Shown one piece after another: positions 7,858 through 47,311 of a DNA stretch of 47,369 nt. Source of the stretch: Candidatus Parcubacteria bacterium (GTDB taxonomy: Bacteria; Patescibacteriota; Patescibacteriia; Patescibacteriales; UBA12075); contig JAGLPO010000006.1 in assembly GCA_023137275.1 (NCBI GenBank), positions 1-47,369 of the forward strand, read 5' to 3'. How positions within the stretch are numbered: position 1 is the first letter of the stretch; every line of letters starts with the position of its first letter. The notes under the pieces are model-generated. The model saw nothing but the letters and a program-made list of their open reading frames with translations, ran no database searches and was not told where the DNA came from. The translations under genes were made by a program, and so were the position numbers.

Positions 7858-7968
7858 TAGACAACAGACAGCAGTCTATAATCCACATTCTGCTTGCTTT
7901 CTATATATCTGCCCTCTGCCGTCTGTTTTCTGCCGTCTGCGGTCTGTTGTCTGCCGTCTATCTACTAC
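7858..7968. repeat. Heptamer-stem hairpin element (CAGACRR)n - loop - (YYGTCTG)n
   Basis: tagacaacagacagcag | tctataatccacattctg | ...ctgccgtctgttttctgccgtctgcggtctgttgtctgccgtcta. It occupies the rseP-hpf spacer. The right arm is longer than the left. Confidence 0.85.
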
Positions 7969-9764: not shown

Positions 9765-9841
9765 TAGACAACAGACAGCAGACGACAGAAAATAGAGTGT
9801 GAATTGCAGGCTGCCGTCTGCCGTCTGTTGTCTATTTTCTG
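9765..9841. repeat. Heptamer-stem hairpin element with the loop in the opposite orientation to the other copies
   Basis: tagacaacagacagcagacgacag | aaaatagagtgtgaattgcagg | ctgccgtctgccgtctgttgtcta. The reverse complement of the loop (cctgcaattcacactct) matches the loop consensus of the other copies. Confidence 0.85.
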
Positions 9842-10929: not shown

Positions 10930-10999
10930 TAGACAGCAGACAACAGACGACAGTCTGTAATTCACATTCTGCCGTCTGTTGTCTGTCGTCTGTCGTCTA
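10930..10999. repeat. Heptamer-stem hairpin element overlapping the holB 3' end
   Basis: tagacagcagacaacagacgacag | tctgtaattcacattctg | ccgtctgttgtctgtcgtctgtcgtcta. Confidence 0.9.
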
Positions 11000-12059: not shown

Positions 12060-12194
12060 GATTCTATTATAGCATTAGCGGATATTCAAGGCAAACAAAA
12101 TAAATCCAGCACCATCTTGATTTATTTATCCAACAACATTAATGTGGTGCTGAATAAAATACGCGAAAATAAGCCATAATAGGCAGCTAAAACC

Positions 12195-12223
12195 TTGATT
12201 AATTTGTTTATTTCTGTTATACT
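12195..12223 (+). promoter_or_regulatory. Putative sigma70-type promoter (TTGATT-17 nt-TATACT) only 6 nt upstream of the ATG
   Basis: TTGATT at 12195-12200, a 17-nt spacer, TATACT at 12218-12223, and the ATG at 12230. No SD fits in between. Confidence 0.4.
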
Positions 12224-12229
12224 GGCGAC

Positions 12230-13588
12230 ATGCGTAAAAAACTGAAAAAAATCATCTTACTTTGCGGAGATATTAGCGTTTTATATATTTCACTATATTT
12301 AACGCTTCTTGTCCGCTACCTGGAGCAGCCGTCAGCCAGTACCTGGGCTTTGCATATTGGCCCTTTCTCTCTGGCGTTTTTCTTTTGGCTGATTATCTTT
12401 TATATTTCCGACCTCTATAACCTGCATTACGCGGTTAATAATTCAAAATTTTTTAATATCACTTTCCGGGCCGTCGCGATCGCCGGCGGGCTGTCAGCCG
12501 TATTTTTTTATGTCAACCCAAATATAAACATTGCCCCTAAAACCAATTTGGTAATTTATTTAATAATATTTACCATCATTTTCATTCTTTGGCGCCGGCT
12601 ATTTAATCGGGCATTGCTTACCAAGATGACCAAGGAAAATATCGCTGTTATCGGCTATGACCCAAACGTTCAGGAAATAATTGATACTCTGCGCGACCAG
12701 CCCCATCTGGGATACAGTATTAAATTAATTGTTAGCAGCCGCGTTCCTCGCGGGGGAAACAACGAAATGATAGTAACCGAAAAAATTTTCGGATTAAAAG
12801 AAACGATAATAAAACAAAACATTTCCACGATTATTTTTGCCGCCAACCCGCGCCAGTCCCCGGAACTTAGAAAAATAATGTTTTCCTGTTTGCCGCTTAA
12901 AATTGATTTTGTCGGCTTGCCCGGCTTTTATGAGCATCTTACCGGTAAAATCCCGATTGAAGCGATCAGCCAGATGTGGTTTCTGGAAAACCTGAATGAA
13001 GGCAGCAAGAAATGGTTTAATATTGCCAAACGCGTTTATGACATTATTTTCGCGTTTAGTATTCTCCTTGTTACCGCTTTGCTCTGGCCTTTGATTGGAA
13101 TAATTATAAAACTGGAAAGCAAAGGCCCGATCTTCTTTTATTCGCTCCGCGCCGGCCTGAATGGCAACTTTAAGCTGGTTAAATTCCGCACTATGCGCGA
13201 AGAAAACAACCAGCGCACTTTAACCACCACTGATGACCCGCGCGTTACCGTGTTTGGTTCGTTTCTCAGAAAAACGCGTATTGACGAGATACCGCAGGTG
13301 TTGAATATCCTGGCCGGCCACATGAGCTTTGTCGGCCCCCGCCCGGAGCGCCCGGAATTCATATCTGAACTCAAAAAAGAAATTCCTTTTTACGAAGAAA
13401 GGCTTTTGGCAAAACCGGGCCTTACCGGCTGGGACCAGGTCTCGGGCGAATATCATTCCCCTACCCGCGAAGATACCTTAAAGAAGCTACAATACGACCT
13501 CTATTACGTTAAAAACCGCTCCATATATTTAGACTTGTCAATTATCTTAAAGACGATTGCAACGGTTTTAAGGAGAGGAGGAGTATAA
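12230..13588 (+). CDS. Polyprenyl glycosylphosphotransferase (bacterial sugar transferase, WbaP/EpsL-like priming enzyme)
   Basis: 452 aa. N-terminal TMs plus a C-terminal domain with KFRTM...DEIPQVLNILAGHMSFVGPRPERPEF...KPGLTGWDQV. Confidence 0.85.
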   Translation: MRKKLKKIILLCGDISVLYISLYLTLLVRYLEQPSASTWALHIGPFSLAFFFWLIIFYISDLYNLHYAVNNSKFFNITFRAVAIAGGLSAVFFYVNPNINIAPKTNLVIYLIIFTIIFILWRRLFNRALLTKMTKENIAVIGYDPNVQEIIDTLRDQPHLGYSIKLIVSSRVPRGGNNEMIVTEKIFGLKETIIKQNISTIIFAANPRQSPELRKIMFSCLPLKIDFVGLPGFYEHLTGKIPIEAISQMWFLENLNEGSKKWFNIAKRVYDIIFAFSILLVTALLWPLIGIIIKLESKGPIFFYSLRAGLNGNFKLVKFRTMREENNQRTLTTTDDPRVTVFGSFLRKTRIDEIPQVLNILAGHMSFVGPRPERPEFISELKKEIPFYEERLLAKPGLTGWDQVSGEYHSPTREDTLKKLQYDLYYVKNRSIYLDLSIILKTIATVLRRGGV

Positions 13589-13592
13589 TTGA

Positions 13593-14118
13593 TAGACGGC
13601 AGACAACAGACGGCAGACAGCAGGCAGACGGCAGGTAGATAGCAGACAGTAGATAGATAACAGGCAGTAGGTAGAAATTAATTAGAGAGGTGTTGACTTT
13701 ATTAAACCGCAAATAATTTTATAGCCTTCAAATACTTTTACTTTAAGCGCGTTAAACTCATCATCAGAAATATATCCCAAATCATTAGCTAAGATGATAT
13801 GATTTTGTAATTCCGTGTTTGAGCCTCTGGCATACAAATAAAATTTTATTCTATCTTTAGAATGATAGCGACCATAGCCTTCGGCTATATTAGCCGTAAT
13901 AGAAGCGGCCGCTCTTCTTATCTGGCTGGTTAGGCCAAATAATTCCTCCTTGGGAAATTGTCTGGTGAGAGAATAAATTTTTAGCACAACTTGATGATTT
14001 TTTTGCCACGCAATTAGATGAGTAAAATGATGTATATTGTTATTGGACATAGAACTTAGAGTCCTACTGCCCGCTATCTGCGTTCTGTTGTCTGCTGTCT
14101 GTCGTCTGTGGTCTGCTA
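13593..14118. mobile_element. Composite element: long heptamer-repeat inverted arms flanking a four-helix-bundle gene
   Basis: The left arm 13593-13675 (tagacggcagacaacagacggcagacagcaggcagacggcag...ggcagtaggtaga) and the right arm 14064-14118 (ctactgcccgctatctgcgttctgttgtctgctgtctgtcgtctgtggtctgcta) are mutually complementary. Same repeat family as the short hairpins. No transposase is visible, so mobility is inferred. Confidence 0.6.
13682..14050 (-). CDS. Four-helix-bundle protein (23S rRNA intervening-sequence protein family; the family that includes DGR Avd)
   Basis: FTHLIAWQKNHQVVLKIYSLTRQFPKEELFGLTSQIRRAAASITANIAEGYGRYHSKDRIKFYLYARGSNTELQNHIILANDLGYI is the characteristic pattern. I prefer the start at M25 (14050), because upstream codons read through the repeat arm. 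Confidence 0.8.
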   Translation of the reverse strand: MSNNNIHHFTHLIAWQKNHQVVLKIYSLTRQFPKEELFGLTSQIRRAAASITANIAEGYGRYHSKDRIKFYLYARGSNTELQNHIILANDLGYISDDEFNALKVKVFEGYKIICGLIKSTPL

Positions 14119-14196
14119 ACAACCAGCAGAGCTCCCAGCCGCTTGCGCAACCAGGAGCTCTTTATGCCGGACCTTTCCCGTAATAATTTAATAGAC

Positions 14197-16542
14197 TCAC
14201 TGCCAGATCGACTGTTGCAAACTTTTCAAATCAAAACTTAATATTTCATAAGCCTCGTCCGTGATCCAATTCTTATTATTATAAAATTTAATTTGTTTTT
14301 CTATCAGCCAAATATGCAGATTAATATATTTTTTTATCGCGGTTTTTAATTTTTCATTCGTGGAATTTTCCCATTGATCATATTTCTTTTCCAAATGGTC
14401 AATATTTTTGATCAGCCAATTTTTAATTAACAGTTTCTTAATATCACCGGAAACGAATAAACATTCAATATCATCCCTGACAGCGGAAAAATTTAATTCT
14501 CTTGTTCTTGTTAAATCAATTATTTCATTGCTATCATTAATCGTAAATTGATACTCGTGTACGTCGCCCAAACAGGTAACCCCGCTAATTAAATCATCGT
14601 TTGGCCCGCTAAAAGTGTCATCAGTTAATATATCAATCCCTAATTGATAAACGCCATCAGCTGTACCCTGGAGTATAACCCGGTACGGCCCGGGGGCTGG
14701 GTTTATAATTGTGCTAAACTCGTGCAAGCCATCAGGGCCGGTATAAAACGCGCCTTCTACTTCATTCACTTCTGCGCCAACTTCTGCGCCAGAAACAAAA
14801 TCTTTACCTACTCTCTTTTCCTCAGGCGTAATAACGACAAAATCAACCGGACACATAGCGCGGACAAGTAAGACGTCTTTAATGTCTTTCCAGGAAGCTT
14901 CATAATAATCGTCAGTGTTGCTGCCGGTTAATATTTTAATCACTTCTTTCTGCGATTTGGTAACAATATCCCTGTGTTTGGAATCACTGATTGTAGTAGT
15001 GCTTGCGCCGGGCAAGGCGATCAAACTGTTTGTCAACACGGTTGTGTCACCCTCACCCATTATTAAACAATCATCATCACCTAAAAAAATACAATCCGGA
15101 TAGCCGTATTTCCATTTATTGTCATAAATATAAGTGTCTGGCACGACGTGTAAATATCTAAGCGTGCTGTCTGTTATTGGGTCGCTGTAAATATTAGTAG
15201 CTTCGGCTCTGGTAGCGACCACTTCGATATTTTCATTCAAATCATCTATAAAGCTGTTTACCGGATAATTAGCCGGATAAACCCGCGTCTGCCAATCATT
15301 GCCATCTTTATCCATTAAATAATCATAGGTTGGTAATAACTCAGACACACTGGTAATATCGTCCCTAATATAATTAATTAAATTTTTCTCTTTCTTTTTA
15401 GCTTCTTTGTTTAAAATATATTTTAAAATATTGCCTTTTATGCCGGAAAAATACCCGCCTTCATTAATCAGGTATGAATCTGTTGATCCAATGTGCGGGG
15501 TATTGAGAAATATCAGCTGATCAACATCATTATCATATTCAGCTCCCTGCACATAACTCCGCGCCACAAGCCCGCCCATGCTGTGCGCCACAATGTCCAC
15601 CTGTTCCTGGCTGGTGGTGGCCTTAATATAATTTATATAATTTTTTAAATCAATGGCAGTCTCATTGTTGCTTTGACGCCAGTCATAAGGAAATAAAAAT
15701 AAATTCTCATTCAAGGCATAGCCGTTATTCGTAAGCGCCTCAGTTAAATATTTATAAGTATGCAGAATCGGATCCAACATCATCACCCCATCCTTTTCCC
15801 AACTCCCCCCAATCCCCGGGATAAGGATGAGTGGATCGGTTGTTTCTGGTTCGTCTGGGATAGTATAGGTTACTTCAAGATACGGCGCTTTATTAATGTC
15901 GTCTTCATAATAATTAATATCAAAACGAAATCCCATCCAGACACCCCCAGGAGTTTCTGGTCTTATATCATCTACATCATACCCTGTACGCATTCCAAAC
16001 GAACTCCAACCAGAGGTTGAAATGCCGCTAATCCCGGTCGTATTTAAGGCTATGGCATTGTACTCGCCAACACTATAATCGCCCCATTTGAAGCGACCTG
16101 ACCACTCTTCTGGATTATTAACAGTACCAAAATCATTAAAATCTTCACTCTCCAAGGTCTCTCCAACACCCTGCACAATAACAGCGGAGCTGAGAATGTC
16201 ATCGCTATAATCATCCTTTACTCCGATAATAAACAAATTAATGGACGCGTCTTGGATTATGGCATTATCCGGGATTGACGAAGTATCAAACGCCACGCCA
16301 CCTCTATAAATTATACAATAATCAGTTGTAAAACATTCGGCACGTACAAAATGCCCGACATTGGAATGAACAATTCCTGATACGGCGTCATGTCTTATAT
16401 TCCAGCTACCGCTCGTAGAATTTATTGTCCCATCAGAAGAAGACGTTGTATAAAATTTGTCAGTAACTACTGCGGCATTTACACTGCTAATAAAAAAAAG
16501 ACAAATAAATAAATTAATTACAACCAATAATAAATTTTTCAT
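14197..16542 (-). CDS. Secreted multidomain alpha/beta hydrolase, LCAT/lipase-like
   Basis: Signal peptide MKNLLLVVINLFICLFFISSVNA. Hydrolase core LILIPGIGGSW...FPYDWRQS...VDIVAHSMGGLVARSY (GxSxG nucleophile elbow and an LCAT-family-like YDWR). The ~230-aa N-terminal domain and the C-terminal beta-sandwich-like and helical parts are unassigned. Confidence 0.65.
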   Translation of the reverse strand: MKNLLLVVINLFICLFFISSVNAAVVTDKFYTTSSSDGTINSTSGSWNIRHDAVSGIVHSNVGHFVRAECFTTDYCIIYRGGVAFDTSSIPDNAIIQDASINLFIIGVKDDYSDDILSSAVIVQGVGETLESEDFNDFGTVNNPEEWSGRFKWGDYSVGEYNAIALNTTGISGISTSGWSSFGMRTGYDVDDIRPETPGGVWMGFRFDINYYEDDINKAPYLEVTYTIPDEPETTDPLILIPGIGGSWEKDGVMMLDPILHTYKYLTEALTNNGYALNENLFLFPYDWRQSNNETAIDLKNYINYIKATTSQEQVDIVAHSMGGLVARSYVQGAEYDNDVDQLIFLNTPHIGSTDSYLINEGGYFSGIKGNILKYILNKEAKKKEKNLINYIRDDITSVSELLPTYDYLMDKDGNDWQTRVYPANYPVNSFIDDLNENIEVVATRAEATNIYSDPITDSTLRYLHVVPDTYIYDNKWKYGYPDCIFLGDDDCLIMGEGDTTVLTNSLIALPGASTTTISDSKHRDIVTKSQKEVIKILTGSNTDDYYEASWKDIKDVLLVRAMCPVDFVVITPEEKRVGKDFVSGAEVGAEVNEVEGAFYTGPDGLHEFSTIINPAPGPYRVILQGTADGVYQLGIDILTDDTFSGPNDDLISGVTCLGDVHEYQFTINDSNEIIDLTRTRELNFSAVRDDIECLFVSGDIKKLLIKNWLIKNIDHLEKKYDQWENSTNEKLKTAIKKYINLHIWLIEKQIKFYNNKNWITDEAYEILSFDLKSLQQSIWQ

Positions 16543-40073: not shown

Positions 40074-41149
40074 ATTATTTTAATCAACTTCTCCAAACTA
40101 TGATCATTTTTCACAATCTCTCTTAATTCTTTGCCTAATTCCAATCGCTTCTCCGGCAAAGTATTAATTATTTTTTCAATCCTCTTTGCCAACGCCTGAT
40201 AGTCCCCTTTATCATAAATCAAACCAGGATATTTACATAGCAAATCATTCTTAATTGCGTCATTGCATGAAATTACTAACAAACCACAAGCCATTGCCTC
40301 TAAAACAACCTTATCCAAACTGCCGGTCTGGCTGGCATGAATAAACAGATCAGCATCCTGATAATATTTAATAATATCTTTATTCGGTATTGGACCGACA
40401 AAATTAACTCTCTCCTCAAGCCCCTTTTCACCAACCAACTGCTTTAACTCCTTAAAATATTTCTCATCTTTCTCATCTAATGGCCCGCCGATAACGTCAA
40501 ATTTAACATTCTTAATCCTTTCCACTGCCTTAATCAAGGTTTTAATATCTTTAGATGGAGAAATCCTCCCAACGGTTATTAGCGTAAATTTTGAATTTTG
40601 AATTTTGAATTTTGAATCAATTTTTAATTCTGAATTTTTAATTTTTAATTTTTGATAATCAATCCCATGCCCGACAACTTTAACCTTTTTACTTGATAAT
40701 CTAAAACTCTCTTTAGAAGCCGTAAAAATAATATCAGTAAATTTTTCCGCGATTCGCAAATGCCAGGGAGCAGCCTTATGAGTCCACCATAAGGCAATTT
40801 TTTTTCTCATTAATTTCCAAAATATTCCCCCCAAAACCACATACTCCGAATTCATATGAACAAAAACCTTATCATAATTACATCTTTCAGAAATTATATA
40901 TTTATAAAATCTAATTATATATGAACATCTCAATAATAACCTGCCGTCTGTTGTCTGTTGTCTGTTGTCTAAGTTCTCTTTCCCTAAACTTAATACTTTC
41001 ACATTATCCGGTAAATCATATTCTCCTTTATATAAACATATTACAGTTAATTTTTCACAACGCGTGGCAAAAACACGCAACCAATCGTGAAAAAAACCCA
41101 AAATAGAGTCGTTTTTATCAACTTTTTGGGTAATAATTAATAATTTCAT
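40055..41149 (-). CDS. Glycosyltransferase family 4 carrying two in-frame short-repeat insertions
   Basis: C-terminal FIHASQTGSLDKVVLEAMACGLLVIS and VGRISPSKD motifs. The likely start, MKLLIITQKV at 41149, overlaps the upstream stop as TAATG. Confidence 0.8.
   Translation of the reverse strand: MKLLIITQKVDKNDSILGFFHDWLRVFATRCEKLTVICLYKGEYDLPDNVKVLSLGKENLDNRQQTTDGRLLLRCSYIIRFYKYIISERCNYDKVFVHMNSEYVVLGGIFWKLMRKKIALWWTHKAAPWHLRIAEKFTDIIFTASKESFRLSSKKVKVVGHGIDYQKLKIKNSELKIDSKFKIQNSKFTLITVGRISPSKDIKTLIKAVERIKNVKFDVIGGPLDEKDEKYFKELKQLVGEKGLEERVNFVGPIPNKDIIKYYQDADLFIHASQTGSLDKVVLEAMACGLLVISCNDAIKNDLLCKYPGLIYDKGDYQALAKRIEKIINTLPEKRLELGKELREIVKNDHSLEKLIKIICKSYL
40587..40654. repeat. Heptamer tandem repeats (AATTTTG)x4 and (AATTTTT)x3 inside the GT4 gene
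   Basis: aattttgaattttgaattttgaattttg at 40587-40614 and aatttttaatttttaattttt at 40633-40653. They encode KIKNSELKIDSKFKIQNSKF. Confidence 0.9.
40941..40972. repeat. Heptamer repeat (YYGTCTG)n inside the GT4 gene
   Basis: ctgccgtctgttgtctgttgtctgttgtcta encodes DNRQQTTDGR. Confidence 0.9.
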
Positions 41150-42267: not shown

Positions 42268-42352
42268 CGGAGAGTGAGGGATTCGAACCCTCGTGGGCTA
42301 TTAACCCGCCTGCTTTCCAAGCAAGTGCCATAGGCCTCTAGGCGAACTCTCC
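42268..42352 (-). tRNA. tRNA-Ser (anticodon GGA), type II with a long variable arm
   Basis: Minus strand: GGAGAGT-TC-GCC..GGC-A-CTTGC-TTGGAAA-GCAGG-(long variable arm)-GAGGG-TTCGAAT-CCCTC-ACTCTCC-G. Perfect 7-bp acceptor stem, canonical T-loop, 85 nt. CCA is not encoded. Confidence 0.9.
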
Positions 42353-43241: not shown

Positions 43242-43298
43242 CTTAGACCGCAGACAACAGACGGCAGACAGCAGCCAATCATTCGCATGCTGTCGTCT
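43242..43298. repeat. Heptamer-stem hairpin element with a truncated right arm
   Basis: tagaccgcagacaacagacggcagacagcag | ccaatcattcgcatg | ctgtcgtcttg. Confidence 0.8.
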
Positions 43299-43319
43299 TG
43301 ATAAAACTTGCTAAAAATC

Positions 43320-44785: not shown

Positions 44786-44850
44786 TTAGACCGCAGACCG
44801 CAGTCTGTTATTCGCATTCTGTTGTCTGCTGTCTGTGGTCTGCTGTCTCG
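44786..44850. repeat. Heptamer-stem hairpin element filling the gatC-gatA spacer
   Basis: tagaccgcagaccgcag | tctgttattcgcattctg | ttgtctgctgtctgtggtctgctgtctcg. Confidence 0.9.
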
Positions 44851-45144: not shown

Positions 45145-45212
45145 AGAAACAGACAGCAGATAGCAGATAGCAGTATAATATTCGCATACTGTGGCCTGTT
45201 GTCTGTTGTCTA
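45145..45212. repeat. Heptamer-stem hairpin element filling the ligA-gatC spacer
   Basis: agaaacagacagcagatagcagatagcag | tataatattcgcatactg | tggcctgttgtctgttgtcta. Confidence 0.9.
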
Positions 45213-45217
45213 ATTAA

Positions 45218-47311
45218 TTATTTAATCATCTTTAAAAATTCTTCTTCGCTAATTATCTTCACTCCCAGTTCTTTAGCTTTTTCAAATTTACTCCCCGGGT
45301 CTTTGCCAGCCACAATCAGATCGGTTTTTGGGCTAACCGCGGAACTGATCTTACCGCCTAATTCTCTTATTTTAGCCTTTGCCCGCTCCCTTGTCAAACT
45401 CTTTAAACTTCCGGTTAAAACAACGGCTTTTCCGCTTAATTCAGAGGGTCTTTTTCTTGTCTTTAAATGGGCAATATCAATAACAACACCGGCTTTTTCC
45501 AGTTTATTTAACAGCTCAATATTTAACTTATTATGAAACCAATCATACACGCTCCTGGCCACAATCGGCCCAATATCCGGCAAATTTTCTAATTCTTCAA
45601 TAGTATAATCACTAAATATTCTTTTAATTTGAGAAATTTTATTCTCTTGTCTGCCGTCTGCCGTCTGCCGTCTGCTTTCTGCTGCTAAAAACAGCGCGCT
45701 CTCTTCCCCGATATGCCTGATCCCAAGACCGATTAAAAATCGCTCCAGCAAAATATTTTTCTTCACCTGTATTGAATCAACTAAATTCTCGGCTGATTTG
45801 TCAGCAAATCTTTCCAAAGGTTTTAAATCTCCCGCGGCTAGAGAATAAAAATCAGCCACATCGCTTATTAGGCCTTCTTTCATAAGCTGTTCAATGATCT
45901 TCGGTCCCAAACCTTCAATATCAACCGCGCCCTTGCTGGTCCAATGGGACAGCCTGCGCAAATTAACCGCGTAGCAATCATTATTAATACAGCGATGCGC
46001 CACTTCGCCTTTTATTTTTTTAATATCTGAAGCACAGATCAAACACTTCTTAGGCGCGATAATCGTTTTTTCCTTGCCGGTCCGAAGTTTTGGAAGCGCT
46101 TTTATTACCTTGGGAATAACATCGCCGGCGCGCTCAAGAATCACGGTATCTCCGATTTTCAGCTTAAGACGTTTGATCTCATCCATATTATGGAGCGTAG
46201 CGTGCGTTACCGTAACTCCGCCCACATTGGCCGGTTCCAGCACTGCTATGGGTGTTAATACGCCGGTTCGTCCGACTTGCCAGACCACTTCCTTGATCCT
46301 GGTCGTTACCTGAATGCCGGCAAATTTGTAAGCCATCATATATCTGGGGCCCTTGCCGACCGTACCAAGTATATTCCATAGGGCCAAATCATTAACTTTT
46401 ACTACCATGCCGTCAACCTCAAAGGGCAGATTGTCCCGGTTCTTTTCCCAATGCGCGTGCATCTTGTTAACCGCTTCCAAATTAGCGCAATATTTATTCT
46501 CACGCAAAGTCTTAAAACCAAGCCGGGCAAGCAGTTCCCGCTTTTCTTCATTTTTCTTAAGGCCCATATCGGCCACAATCTCATAAGCGATAAAATCAAG
46601 CTTTCTCTCGGCCGCCAATTTCGGATCCAGCTGGCGAACCGAGCCGGCAGCCGCGTTGCGCGGATTCTTCAGCTCGGGCTTGTTGGCTTTTTTATATTTT
46701 TGGTTTAACTCTTTAAAAACCGCCTTGGTCATGATTATTTCGCCGCGCACTTCAATATTCTTTATTTTATCTGCCAGATTAAGAGGAACAGAATCAATGG
46801 TTTTGATATTCCCGGTCACATCTTCCCCTATTCGCCCATCGCCCCGGGTAATCGCCTGAACCAGGCTATTATTCTCATAACGAAGCGCGATTGCTATTCC
46901 GTCAAGTTTTAACTCACAAAAGTAACCTCCCAAATCAACACCTCCCCCCCTCCGCTGCGCTCCTCCCCCTCTCCTAATTAGGAGAGGGGGGCGGGGGAAG
47001 AGGATTTTAATATTTCTGGCTTCCCAATCAGCCATGTCCTGCTTATTAAAAGCGTCAAAAAGGGACAGCATGCGCGAGGAATGAGCGGCTTTTTTAAATT
47101 TATCCAAAGGCCGGCCGCCAACGCGCTGGGTCGGCGAATCCGAAGTCACCAAATCCGGAAATTCCTGCTCCAGCTTAAAAAGCTCGTTTTTTAGGCTGTC
47201 CAAAGCCTCCTGGCTCATACTCTCCAAATCCCGCACATGGTACTGATAGCGATGAAACGCTATTTCCTTTTTTAATTTTTCTATCCTGTTTTTAACAAAA
47301 TTTTTATCCAT
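45218..47311 (-). CDS. ligA: NAD-dependent DNA ligase LigA with two repeat-derived in-frame insertions
   Basis: KLDG adenylation motif (CELKLDGIAI), a Zn-finger with four Cys (CLICAS...CINNDC), HhH region (GIRHIGE, DIGPIVA), and a C-terminal BRCT (GKAVVLTGSL...). Confidence 0.95.
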   Translation of the reverse strand: MDKNFVKNRIEKLKKEIAFHRYQYHVRDLESMSQEALDSLKNELFKLEQEFPDLVTSDSPTQRVGGRPLDKFKKAAHSSRMLSLFDAFNKQDMADWEARNIKILFPRPPLLIRRGGGAQRRGGGVDLGGYFCELKLDGIAIALRYENNSLVQAITRGDGRIGEDVTGNIKTIDSVPLNLADKIKNIEVRGEIIMTKAVFKELNQKYKKANKPELKNPRNAAAGSVRQLDPKLAAERKLDFIAYEIVADMGLKKNEEKRELLARLGFKTLRENKYCANLEAVNKMHAHWEKNRDNLPFEVDGMVVKVNDLALWNILGTVGKGPRYMMAYKFAGIQVTTRIKEVVWQVGRTGVLTPIAVLEPANVGGVTVTHATLHNMDEIKRLKLKIGDTVILERAGDVIPKVIKALPKLRTGKEKTIIAPKKCLICASDIKKIKGEVAHRCINNDCYAVNLRRLSHWTSKGAVDIEGLGPKIIEQLMKEGLISDVADFYSLAAGDLKPLERFADKSAENLVDSIQVKKNILLERFLIGLGIRHIGEESALFLAAESRRQTADGRQENKISQIKRIFSDYTIEELENLPDIGPIVARSVYDWFHNKLNIELLNKLEKAGVVIDIAHLKTRKRPSELSGKAVVLTGSLKSLTRERAKAKIRELGGKISSAVSPKTDLIVAGKDPGSKFEKAKELGVKIISEEEFLKMIK
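45646..45686. repeat. Heptamer repeat (YYGTCTG)n in frame in the ligA HhH region
   Basis: cttgtctgccgtctgccgtctgccgtctgctttctgctgc encodes AAESRRQTADGRQE. Confidence 0.9.
46941..47002. repeat. G/C-homopolymer-rich palindrome in frame in ligA, just before the KxDG motif
   Basis: cctccccccctccgctgcgctcctccccctctcc-taatta-ggagaggggggcgggggaagagg encodes FPRPPLLIRRGGGAQRRGGG. Confidence 0.85.

What the first reader, a model, noticed from the sequence alone, without database searches (positions are those of the whole stretch)
13593..14118. One heptamer hairpin is expanded into a 526-bp element whose loop is a four-helix-bundle (23S-IVS/Avd family) gene
Between convergent genes, an 83-bp left arm and a 55-bp right arm of the same (CAGACRR)n/(YYGTCTG)n family are mutually complementary, including the innermost ggcagtag/ctactgcc. 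They bracket a 369-bp ORF of the four-helix-bundle family.

That family was first described as the ORF inside 23S rRNA intervening sequences. Those are long inverted-repeat stems excised by RNase III with the ORF in the loop. The family also includes the Avd accessory protein of diversity-generating retroelements.

The same stem-plus-ORF architecture occurs here outside any rRNA. It is made from the same repeat that forms about six empty hairpins and several in-frame gene insertions in this window. This suggests an autonomous/non-autonomous relationship as in IS/MITE pairs: the 4HB-carrying copy could be the parent or helper, and the short hairpins its derivatives. Alternatively the 4HB protein binds these stems. 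Either reading would give a function to a very widespread protein family of unknown role.
Basis: partly seen in the sequence, partly recalled or inferred. Interest (0 to 1): 0.8.

Follow-up and report, generated by a model that had tools for sequence, protein, structure and literature searches.

The report
Mobile four-helix-bundle gene with heptamer arms
A small gene of unknown function sits between two inverted arrays of a 7-base repeat, the whole 532-bp unit is a mobile insertion, and the same pairing recurs across bacteria, which ties this protein family to the unexplained excess of 7-base repeats in bacterial genomes.

Summary
Window 13682-14050 (-) encodes a 122-aa PF05635/TIGR02436 four-helix-bundle (4HB) protein. 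It is bracketed by inverted (CAGACRR)n arrays that pair when folded.

A related contig (L100) has the same convergent genes with nothing between them. The 532-bp unit 13589-14120 (arms plus ORF) is therefore one insertion, not a gene dropped into an existing hairpin. The 70-bp empty hairpin at 10930-10999 is also absent there.

The pattern generalises:
- Period 7 is the best period in 61/77 upstream and 54/77 downstream flanks of 4HB homologues. The arms are inverted in 69%, against 5% of control genes.
- The heptamer sequence differs between lineages and co-varies with the protein.
- Heptamer arms also occur in cyanobacteria, Bacteroidota, viral-collection contigs, at Xanthomonas XCC0516 (PDB 2gsc), and in a true 23S rRNA IVS of Azospirillum.

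The ORF is under strong purifying selection and is promoterless. It is co-oriented with its neighbours 59:2.

Best reading: an IVS-type selfish cassette that rides host transcripts, with its stem probably cut by RNase III. The ORF-less hairpins are probably derivatives. Whether the protein binds or mobilises the heptamers is not shown.

Prior art is partial: heptamers were noted in the Coxiella IVS only.

The parts
13589..14120 (.). Whole inserted unit (arms + 4HB ORF), 532 bp
   Evidence: L100 aligns to window 12153-13588 and directly on to 14121-15943. Its stop codon TAA is followed at once by ACCAGCAGAGCTCC, with at most 1 bp ambiguous at the junction.
14063..14118 (-). 5' arm on the 4HB sense strand: (CAGACRR)n array, purine-rich
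   Evidence: Sequence read directly. Pairs with the other arm. Identical in strain variants L001/L002.
14051..14062 (-). 5' junction between arm and ATG (sense ACTCTAAGTTCT), AGGAyrTyTAARTyCT-ATG type
   Evidence: Conserved in the close homologues L093, L094 and L097, which sit in unrelated contexts.
13682..14050 (-). 4HB gene, 122 aa, PF05635/TIGR02436, basic (pI 9.4)
   Evidence: AF2 model pLDDT 95.5 with four helices. Foldseek top hits are 2gsc, 2rld and Avd 4dwl/8ub7. dN/dS 0.04-0.11.
13593..13675 (-). 3' arm on the sense strand (YYGTCTG units; CAGACRR on the + strand, begins TAGAC)
   Evidence: Length and unit order differ in L001/L002 although the protein is identical.
14128..14161 (-). 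Terminator-like hairpin of the lipase-like gene; the unit is inserted at its foot
   Evidence: 15-pair stem found by the scan. Present in L100, L001 and L002 with paired changes. Four G-U pairs occur on the minus strand only (read).
10930..10999 (.). ORF-less heptamer hairpin; supplies the last 11 codons of the DNA pol III delta' ORF
   Evidence: Absent in L100 and L002, which have other sequence at that site. Folds with z = -7.1.
7858..7960 (.). ORF-less heptamer hairpin
   Evidence: z -3.1.
9765..9834 (.). ORF-less heptamer hairpin, loop in the opposite orientation
   Evidence: z -5.9.
43244..43300 (.). Lopsided heptamer element (long left arm, short right arm)
   Evidence: The fold is not significant (z -1.5).
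44787..44849 (.). ORF-less heptamer hairpin
   Evidence: z -4.4.
45150..45212 (.). ORF-less heptamer hairpin
   Evidence: z -3.1.
3286..3322 (-). Solo heptamer array read in frame inside SecA, next to a GTCATCCTG..CGAAGGATC-type repeat
   Evidence: It lies between the SecA P-loop and wing/scaffold Pfam hits.
40937..40971 (-). Solo heptamer array read in frame (..NLDNRQQTTDGR..) in a GT1 glycosyltransferase
45647..45681 (-). Solo heptamer array read in frame inside NAD-dependent DNA ligase
   Evidence: It lies between the HHH_5 and HHH_2 hits.

Best explanation
The 532-bp unit is an IVS-type selfish gene cassette: a promoterless 4HB gene whose whole ORF is the loop between two inverted arrays of a lineage-specific heptamer.

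Shown:
- Arms and ORF insert as one piece.
- The same architecture surrounds 4HB genes across many phyla and in 23S rRNA.
- The ORF is kept by purifying selection.
- It lies in the orientation of the flanking host genes, with only about 40 nt to each neighbour.

Inferred: it is transcribed by read-through as part of host transcripts. The arms then pair into a long stem, and RNase III cuts that stem, as shown experimentally for rRNA IVSs. This would detach the cassette RNA and make the insertion tolerable in operons and rRNA.

Inferred with less support: the basic, Avd-like (probably pentameric) protein recognises the heptamer arrays and helps maintain or spread them. The short ORF-less hairpins and solo arrays of the same unit would then be deletion derivatives, or copies dependent on a protein supplied in trans.
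For: 1. One unit, inserted.
- L100 (Bac_transf 92% aa identical) has TAA followed directly by the shared terminator hairpin. There are no arms and no ORF.
- Homologues 75-80% identical sit in unrelated contexts: FBP aldolase|4HB|TPR, GlyRS|4HB|M16 peptidase, pilins|4HB, and x|4HB|LexA. All have CAGAYRR arms.

2. Generality.
- Period 7 is the best period in 61/77 upstream and 54/77 downstream flanks.
- The arms are inverted (alignment score >=24) in 69%, against 5% of 205 control ORFs in the same loci.
- Heptamer arms occur in 9 of 10 plasmid loci from cyanobacteria, Bacteroidota and Azospirillum and in 15/23 viral-collection loci.
- XCC0516 (PDB 2gsc) has a GGGAATC array over its start codon, in published supplementary data.
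- A 23S IVS has heptamer stems.

3. The protein is functional.
- dN/dS is 0.04-0.11 with dS saturated, and pI is 9.2-9.8.
- The arms nevertheless keep the CAGAY core.

4. Hitch-hiking on host transcription.
- Where both neighbours share an orientation, the 4HB gene agrees with them 59 times against 2.
- The median gap to each neighbour is about 40 nt.
- No promoter-like site lies upstream.

5. Link to the dispersed arrays.
- Distant arrays match the local 4HB unit in 23% of cases, against 5% for units from other loci.
- There are 176 arrays per 381 kb in 4HB loci, against 11 per 277 kb and no inverted pairs in loci selected by another gene.
- The empty hairpin 10930-10999 is itself an insertion polymorphism.
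- L081 has internally deleted copies that retain their arms.

6. Protein and heptamer unit co-vary. Mantel r = 0.33, p <= 5e-4. Of pairs below 30% protein distance, 62% have units within 1 mismatch.

7. RNase III cleavage inside an IVS stem that holds heptamers was shown experimentally for Coxiella (PMC4990558).
Against: - Mismatches between the arms show no RNA-wobble bias: 53 G-U-compatible against 73 A-C on the sense strand. Selection for RNA pairing is therefore not demonstrated, and the arms could act as DNA.
- In this window a terminator-like hairpin lies between the upstream gene and the 4HB gene, which would limit read-through.
- No transposase-like motif, no partner enzyme in 47 kb and no target duplication. 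The means of movement is unknown.
- In Coxiella the ORF appears unexpressed and decaying, so the protein is dispensable at least after fixation.
- Most distant arrays (77%) carry units different from the local 4HB arms.
- One locus (L087) has direct rather than inverted arms, and one (L086) has none next to the gene.
- The covariation and density tests are not corrected for phylogeny.
Confidence: 0.6

Rival explanations
1. The heptamer hairpin is the real mobile entity, moved by an unidentified host or trans-acting enzyme. The 4HB ORF is only a cargo or addiction-type passenger, and its function has nothing to do with the repeats.
For: - ORF-less hairpins outnumber the 4HB copy in the window (6 or more against 1) and are themselves polymorphic insertions.
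- The protein has no recognisable catalytic motif, and its only characterised relative, Avd, is an accessory protein.
- The Coxiella ORF decays while the IVS persists.
Against: - Across phyla and many different heptamer units, the gene found inside long-loop inverted arrays in these loci is 4HB. Of the inverted same-unit pairs, 29 of 53 are spaced 300-500 nt, the size of a 4HB gene.
- The ORF is under strong purifying selection.
- Unit and protein co-vary.
- Array density falls about tenfold in loci without 4HB.
Confidence: 0.2
2. The arms are only cis-regulatory RNA or DNA structure for 4HB expression (processing, stability or insulation). They evolve by slippage. The other heptamer arrays in the genome arise independently from a general polymerase-slippage bias toward period 7, with no descent or mobilisation link.
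For: - Heptamer SSRs are reported as over-represented in many prokaryotes, and this has been attributed to polymerase slippage (PMC4692102; PMC6344855).
- Arm length and unit order change between strains that have identical proteins.
- Many distant arrays carry other units.
Against: - The empty hairpins share the unit, the TAGAC...GTCTA ends and the 5'-purine/3'-pyrimidine polarity with the 4HB arms.
- They appear as clean 70-bp insertions relative to L100.
- Arrays are about 10 times rarer in loci without 4HB.
- The CAGAY core is kept at saturated dS in five unrelated contexts.
- Truncated 4HB copies keep their arms.
Confidence: 0.12
3. Coincidence: a free-standing 4HB gene happened to land in the loop of one of the many pre-existing heptamer hairpins of this genome.
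For: Hairpins of this family are frequent in intergenic DNA of the window.
Against: - The empty site in L100 has no hairpin.
- 4HB genes in more than 100 other loci from many phyla have arms of other units.
- Control genes have inverted flanks in 5% of cases against 69%.
Confidence: 0.02

Closest known systems
23S rRNA intervening sequences with an S23p/4HB ORF (Leptospira, Coxiella, Brucella; here Azospirillum L090)
   Same: - Same protein family.
- The ORF is the loop of a long terminal inverted-repeat stem.
- Heptamer repeats adjoin the ORF. In Coxiella the unit is GACAGAT, of the same CAGAYRR type, and its copy number varies between strains.
- Sporadic distribution, as expected of a horizontally moving element.
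   Different: - The window element is not in rRNA. It lies between convergent protein genes.
- It has ORF-less relatives and in-frame solo arrays scattered over the same 47 kb.
- Its ORF is intact and under purifying selection, whereas the Coxiella ORF is reported as decaying and untranslated.
Heptanucleotide tandem repeats of bacteria (cyanobacterial STRR; Xanthomonas GGGAATC; Beggiatoaceae TAACTGA)
   Same: - Intergenic tandem 7-nt units.
- Species-specific sequence.
- Often paired in convergent orientation so that they can form hairpins (70-75 such pairs in Xanthomonas).
- Copy number varies between close relatives.
   Different: The published descriptions give no associated gene. Here the arrays bracket 4HB genes. 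In Xanthomonas one published array overlaps the start codon of XCC0516, the 4HB protein of PDB 2gsc.
REP elements and REPtrons (RAYT gene flanked by inverted REPs)
   Same: - A gene bracketed by inverted copies of the repeat that is also dispersed as short intergenic hairpins in the same genome.
- The repeat sequence is lineage-specific.
   Different: - RAYT is an HUH Y1 transposase. 4HB has no such domain.
- The arms here are tandem heptamer arrays, not single palindromes.
IS/MITE pairs
   Same: - An ORF-carrying copy and short ORF-less copies share their ends.
- Presence/absence polymorphism between strains.
- Internally deleted intermediates (L081).
   Different: - No transposase.
- No target-site duplication detected.
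- The ends are expandable tandem arrays.
Avd of diversity-generating retroelements
   Same: Same fold and probably the same pentameric assembly. Basic protein. Avd binds structured RNA and its reverse transcriptase.
   Different: - No RT, TR or VR in the window.
- The Avd equivalog model scores 20.7 bits against a cut-off of 80.
- Only about 8-10% identity in the structural alignment.
Rickettsia palindromic elements
   Same: Short palindromic repeats that also insert in frame into essential protein genes (here SecA, LigA and a glycosyltransferase).
   Different: Unrelated sequence, no heptamer periodicity, and no known associated ORF.

Membership tests
PF05635 / TIGR02436 four-helix-bundle (23S rRNA IVS protein) family | Sequence match above the curated cut-offs | tested here: met
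   PF05635 126.3 bits (cut-off 33.8). TIGR02436 123.8 bits (cut-off 24).
PF05635 / TIGR02436 four-helix-bundle (23S rRNA IVS protein) family | Four-helix-bundle fold like XCC0516 and BT_0352 | tested here: met
   AF2 pLDDT 95.5 with helices at 13-29, 34-60, 64-90 and 96-119. Foldseek match to 2gsc: TM 0.90, rmsd 0.9. Match to 2rld: TM 0.81.
PF05635 / TIGR02436 four-helix-bundle (23S rRNA IVS protein) family | Homopentameric ring | not testable with these tools
   Only monomer prediction is available. 2gsc, 2rld and 4dwl each list chains A-E.
23S rRNA intervening sequence (IVS) element | Located in an rRNA gene (helix 9, 25 or 45 of 23S) | tested here: not met
   Rfam finds only one tRNA in the window. 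The element lies between two protein genes.
23S rRNA intervening sequence (IVS) element | Terminal inverted repeats forming a stem with the S23p/4HB ORF in the loop | tested here: met
   The same layout is seen in the true IVS of L090.
23S rRNA intervening sequence (IVS) element | Excision from the precursor transcript by RNase III | not testable with these tools
   Needs RNA data. Shown for Coxiella in PMC4990558.
DGR accessory protein Avd | Match to the Avd equivalog model | tested here: not met
   NF033474 20.7 bits (cut-off 80). PF22296 bAvd 31 bits (cut-off 40).
DGR accessory protein Avd | Adjacent reverse transcriptase with template and variable repeats | tested here: not met
   No RT domain in any of the 38 window proteins scanned.
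IS / MITE pair | Transposase encoded by the autonomous copy | tested here: not met
   The only ORF is the 4HB protein, and it has no transposase family hit.
IS / MITE pair | Target-site duplication | tested here: not met
   The junctions compared with L100 leave at most 1 ambiguous base.
IS / MITE pair | Presence/absence polymorphism of long and short copies that share ends | tested here: met
   Both 13589-14120 and 10930-10999 are absent in L100. Shared TAGAC...GTCTA ends.
REPtron (REP + RAYT) | HUH Y1 (RAYT) transposase | tested here: not met
   No such domain.
REPtron (REP + RAYT) | Gene flanked by inverted copies of the genome's dispersed intergenic repeat | tested here: met
Heptanucleotide tandem repeats (STRR-type SSRs) | Three or more tandem 7-nt units, mostly intergenic, with a species-specific unit | tested here: met
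   TRF and pattern search. Units differ between genomes.

The most novel reading that the evidence does not exclude
The PF05635 four-helix-bundle protein, as an Avd-like pentamer, is the sequence-specific partner of heptamer arrays. Each 4HB lineage would recognise, maintain and spread its own 7-nt unit. The long-noted, unexplained excess of period-7 tandem repeats and heptamer hairpins in prokaryotic intergenic DNA (STRR, GGGAATC, TAACTGA and others) would then be the footprint of this one family of selfish cassettes and their ORF-less derivatives.
Probability: 0.3. Interest if true: 0.9.

Novelty: new variant of a known kind. Interest (0 to 1): 0.8.

Why it matters
Two old puzzles meet here.

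PF05635/TIGR02436 is a very large family. It has 20,516 clusters at 50% identity with E <= 1e-3. It has no known role outside DGR Avd.

[quoted passage not shown] A Nostoc study explicitly calls for the unidentified protein that binds them.

4HB genes are bracketed by the local heptamer almost everywhere. Arms and ORF move as one unit. Arrays are scarce where 4HB genes are absent. Together these findings turn both puzzles into one testable hypothesis. Ready experimental systems exist: Xanthomonas XCC0516 with GGGAATC, Nostoc, and Coxiella.

The result also revives the 1993 idea that rRNA IVSs are mobile elements, now with non-rRNA copies and an exact empty site.

There is a practical side as well. 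These arrays break MAG assemblies, fuse ORFs, and add in-frame peptides to essential proteins such as SecA and LigA.

Tried and rejected
1. RNA-wobble test. Across 58 loci the arm mismatches were 53 G-U-type against 73 A-C-type on the sense strand. This gives no evidence for RNA-level rather than DNA-level pairing.

2. Target-site duplication. None was found at the L100 junction. A possible TA duplication around GAC...GTC fits the short hairpins, but cannot be told apart from AT-rich flanks and does not fit the right end of the 4HB unit.

3. Own promoter. There is no sigma-70-like site between the lipase stop and the 4HB ATG, only a terminator-like hairpin.

4. Descent of hairpin loops from ORF ends. 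The conserved loop (minus strand CAGAATGTGAATTACAGACTG) shares CAGAATGT with the 5' junction of L093. The match is too short to be conclusive.

5. Universal heptamer core. Optimal rotation gives a weak W-R-G-W-A-W-Y consensus, 3.83 bits against a null of 3.11 +/- 0.17. The units are not phylogenetically independent, so this is only a hint.

6. Phage collection. tblastn found nothing.

7. Rfam. No family matches the hairpins.

8. Literature searches for a described 4HB-heptamer link found none. The exception is the single-species note for Coxiella. The MacGregor supplement has no S23/4HB mention.

9. The 'gene landed in an existing hairpin' reading is rejected.

10. Membership in the DGR Avd family is rejected.

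Full report
**Observation.**
Window 13682-14050 (minus strand) is a 369-nt ORF of 122 aa. It matches PF05635 (23S_rRNA_IVP) at E=7e-37 and TIGR02436 'four helix bundle protein' at 124 bits. Both scores are far above the curated cut-offs. The DGR Avd equivalog model and Pfam bAvd fall below theirs.

The ORF is tightly bracketed. On the plus strand, an 83-bp array of CAGACRR units lies at 13593-13675. An array of YYGTCTG units lies at 14063-14118. Folded as RNA, the two arrays pair around the ORF (z = -5.1, no shuffle as good). The flanking genes are convergent: a sugar transferase and an LCAT/lipase-like protein.

The heptamer is grossly over-represented in the window, with 51 hits against 0.13 expected. 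It forms six short hairpins, five of which fold significantly. It also forms solo arrays read in frame inside SecA, a glycosyltransferase and LigA, and it supplies the last 11 codons of the DNA pol III delta' ORF.

**The unit is an insertion, arms included.**
A scan of metagenome contigs with the neighbouring sugar transferase returned L100, whose protein is 92% identical. L100 aligns to window 12153-13588 and then directly to 14121-15943. Its stop codon TAA is followed at once by the terminator-like hairpin that both genomes share.

The 532 bp at 13589-14120 are therefore a single insertion, with at most one ambiguous base at the junction. The empty site holds no heptamer hairpin. This rules out the idea that a 4HB gene fell into a pre-existing hairpin.

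L100 also lacks the 70-bp hairpin at 10930-10999. Strain variant L002, 96-98% identical to the window, carries a different repeat at that spot. The ORF-less hairpins are thus polymorphic insertions too. L100 has no heptamer array anywhere in its 4.6 kb.

**The architecture is a property of the protein family.**
Eighty loci from species-representative genomes, mostly Patescibacteria, encode homologues 45-75% identical.
- Period 7 is the best self-match period in 61/77 upstream and 54/77 downstream 120-nt flanks.
- The upstream flank aligns to the reverse complement of the downstream flank (score >=24) in 69% of loci, against 5% for 205 other ORFs in the same loci.
- The unit differs between genomes (ATAACAG, AGTGAAC, GAATAAA, AGTAACT, CCGTTAG, CGAATCA and others), but the two arms of a locus agree.

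The same holds well outside this group:
- Plasmid-borne genes of Nostoc, Aulosira, Anabaena, Picosynechococcus and Stanieria, and of Riemerella (Bacteroidota), also have heptamer arms.
- So do 15 of 23 loci in a viral-contig collection, with GC-rich units.
- L090 is a true 23S rRNA gene (Rfam LSU, 2464 bits). It is interrupted at the helix-45 site by a 4HB ORF whose stems are CAGAGGA/CGGATGA heptamers.
- In the published table of Xanthomonas GGGAATC arrays, array #15 overlaps the start codon of XCC0516, the 4HB protein crystallised as 2gsc. The authors list that gene only as 'conserved'.

Exceptions exist. L087 has direct rather than inverted arrays, and L086 has none next to the gene.

**Evidence on how it lives.**
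Homologues 75-80% identical to the window protein lie in unrelated contexts: after FBP aldolase, GlyRS, or pilins, and before LexA. All have CAGAYRR arms and a conserved AGGAyrTyTAARTyCT-ATG junction. Their synonymous sites are saturated while dN/dS is 0.04-0.11. The proteins are basic, with pI 9.2-9.8. The protein is therefore functional. The CAGAY core of the arms persists far beyond neutral expectation.

Where both neighbours share an orientation, the 4HB gene agrees with them 59 times and opposes them twice. The median gap to each neighbour is about 40 nt, and this space is filled by the arms. In many loci the start and stop codons are themselves part of the arrays. No promoter-like site precedes the window gene. 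In cyanobacteria the gene sits inside cas operons, between cas10 and cmr3 or between cas6 and cas4.

These facts fit a promoterless cassette that depends on host transcription. For rRNA IVSs, RNase III cleavage inside the stem is established. In Coxiella it maps to the start of tandem GACAGAT heptamers, whose number varies among strains (PMC4990558). By homology I infer the same processing here, but it is not shown. The arm mismatches give no RNA-wobble signal.

**Link to the dispersed arrays.**
- Arrays more than 200 nt from the 4HB gene match the local arm unit (at most 1 mismatch) in 23% of cases, against 5% for units from other loci. No permutation out of 1000 reaches the per-locus value.
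- 4HB loci hold 176 arrays in 381 kb with 53 inverted same-unit pairs. Loci chosen by an unrelated gene, without any 4HB hit, hold 11 arrays in 277 kb and no such pair.
- Protein distance and unit distance are correlated (Mantel r = 0.33, p <= 5e-4).
- L081 shows an intact copy, a copy with an internal deletion of the ORF, and a copy reduced to an arm plus about 27 nt of ORF.

This supports descent of ORF-less elements from ORF-bearing ones. None of these tests is phylogenetically corrected. All are equally compatible with simple co-inheritance of protein and arms.

**The protein.**
The AF2 model is a confident four-helix bundle (pLDDT 95.5). Its nearest structures are 2gsc, 2rld and DGR Avd (4dwl, 8ub7), each listed with five chains. 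Avd, the only characterised relative, binds structured RNA and a reverse transcriptase (established knowledge). The window has no RT, transposase or integrase. The invariant polar residues E36, Q43, R46, S50, N54, E57, R61, S77, E80 and N83 line one face of helices 2 and 3. Their role is unknown.

**Comparison with what is known.**
The element works like a 23S rRNA IVS and shares its protein, its stem and even its heptamer type. It fails the defining location test, since it is not in rRNA. It resembles a REPtron or an IS/MITE pair in layout and polymorphism, but it has no transposase and no target duplication. It is not a DGR Avd.

Literature searches found heptamer repeats described as abundant and unexplained (PMC6344855, PMC4692102, PMC4679880, and a Nostoc preprint). 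They found the 4HB family described as functionless. No paper connects the two beyond the Coxiella note.

**Verdict.**
The finding is a new variant of a known kind (an IVS-type cassette outside rRNA, with ORF-less relatives). Its family-wide generalisation makes two open questions jointly testable.

Noticed in passing
window 3250-3290; L002 3560-3660: A second repeat family of the GTCATCCTG(A/G)G..GCGAAG..CGAAGGATC hairpin type. One copy abuts the heptamer array inside SecA. Another occupies, in strain L002, the intergenic site where the window has the heptamer hairpin 10930-10999.
   Followed up: partly
window 40587-40652: A different heptamer array, (AATTTTG)n with about 10 copies. It is read in frame (..KLKIKNSELKIDSKFKIQNSKF..) inside the GT1 glycosyltransferase, just before its C-terminal domain. 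The window therefore holds at least two heptamer families.
   Followed up: partly
window 14128-14161: Terminator-like hairpin shared by the convergent genes. It has four G-U pairs on the minus strand only, and L002 and L100 carry paired changes. This suggests it acts as RNA on the lipase/4HB strand. The 4HB unit is inserted exactly at its foot.
   Followed up: partly
L001 1110-2645 vs window 14197-16542: A strain variant with the identical 4HB protein has a different middle part in the neighbouring gene (He_PIG/PKD domains instead of the LCAT-like lipase). It keeps the same N-terminal region and the last 90 nt, so this looks like domain replacement next to the element.
   Followed up: no
L084, L087, L092 (cyanobacterial plasmids): 4HB genes with heptamer arms are inserted inside CRISPR-cas operons: cas10|4HB|cmr3 and cas6|4HB|cas4. 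An earlier report counted 18 such genes in cas loci and read them as functionally associated. Insertion of a selfish cassette is an alternative reading.
   Followed up: partly
L003/L098, L040, L043: Runs of N and contig breaks fall directly on long heptamer arrays. These repeats evidently fragment MAG assemblies.
   Followed up: no
representative hits P0137, P0150, P0152, P0161, P0181 and others: Many family members are called as 260-890-aa proteins with a single 4HB domain. These are probably read-through fusions with neighbouring genes across stop-free heptamer arms.
   Followed up: no
L025 2050-2943 and downstream; L094 1289-1849: L025 has a 297-aa ORF containing a 4HB domain, followed by what looks like the start of another 4HB gene. 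L094 has a second 4HB gene (186 aa) without evident arms, 2 kb from the armed copy.
   Followed up: no
window 42268-42352: A single tRNA gene on the minus strand. It is the only Rfam match in the window.
   Followed up: no
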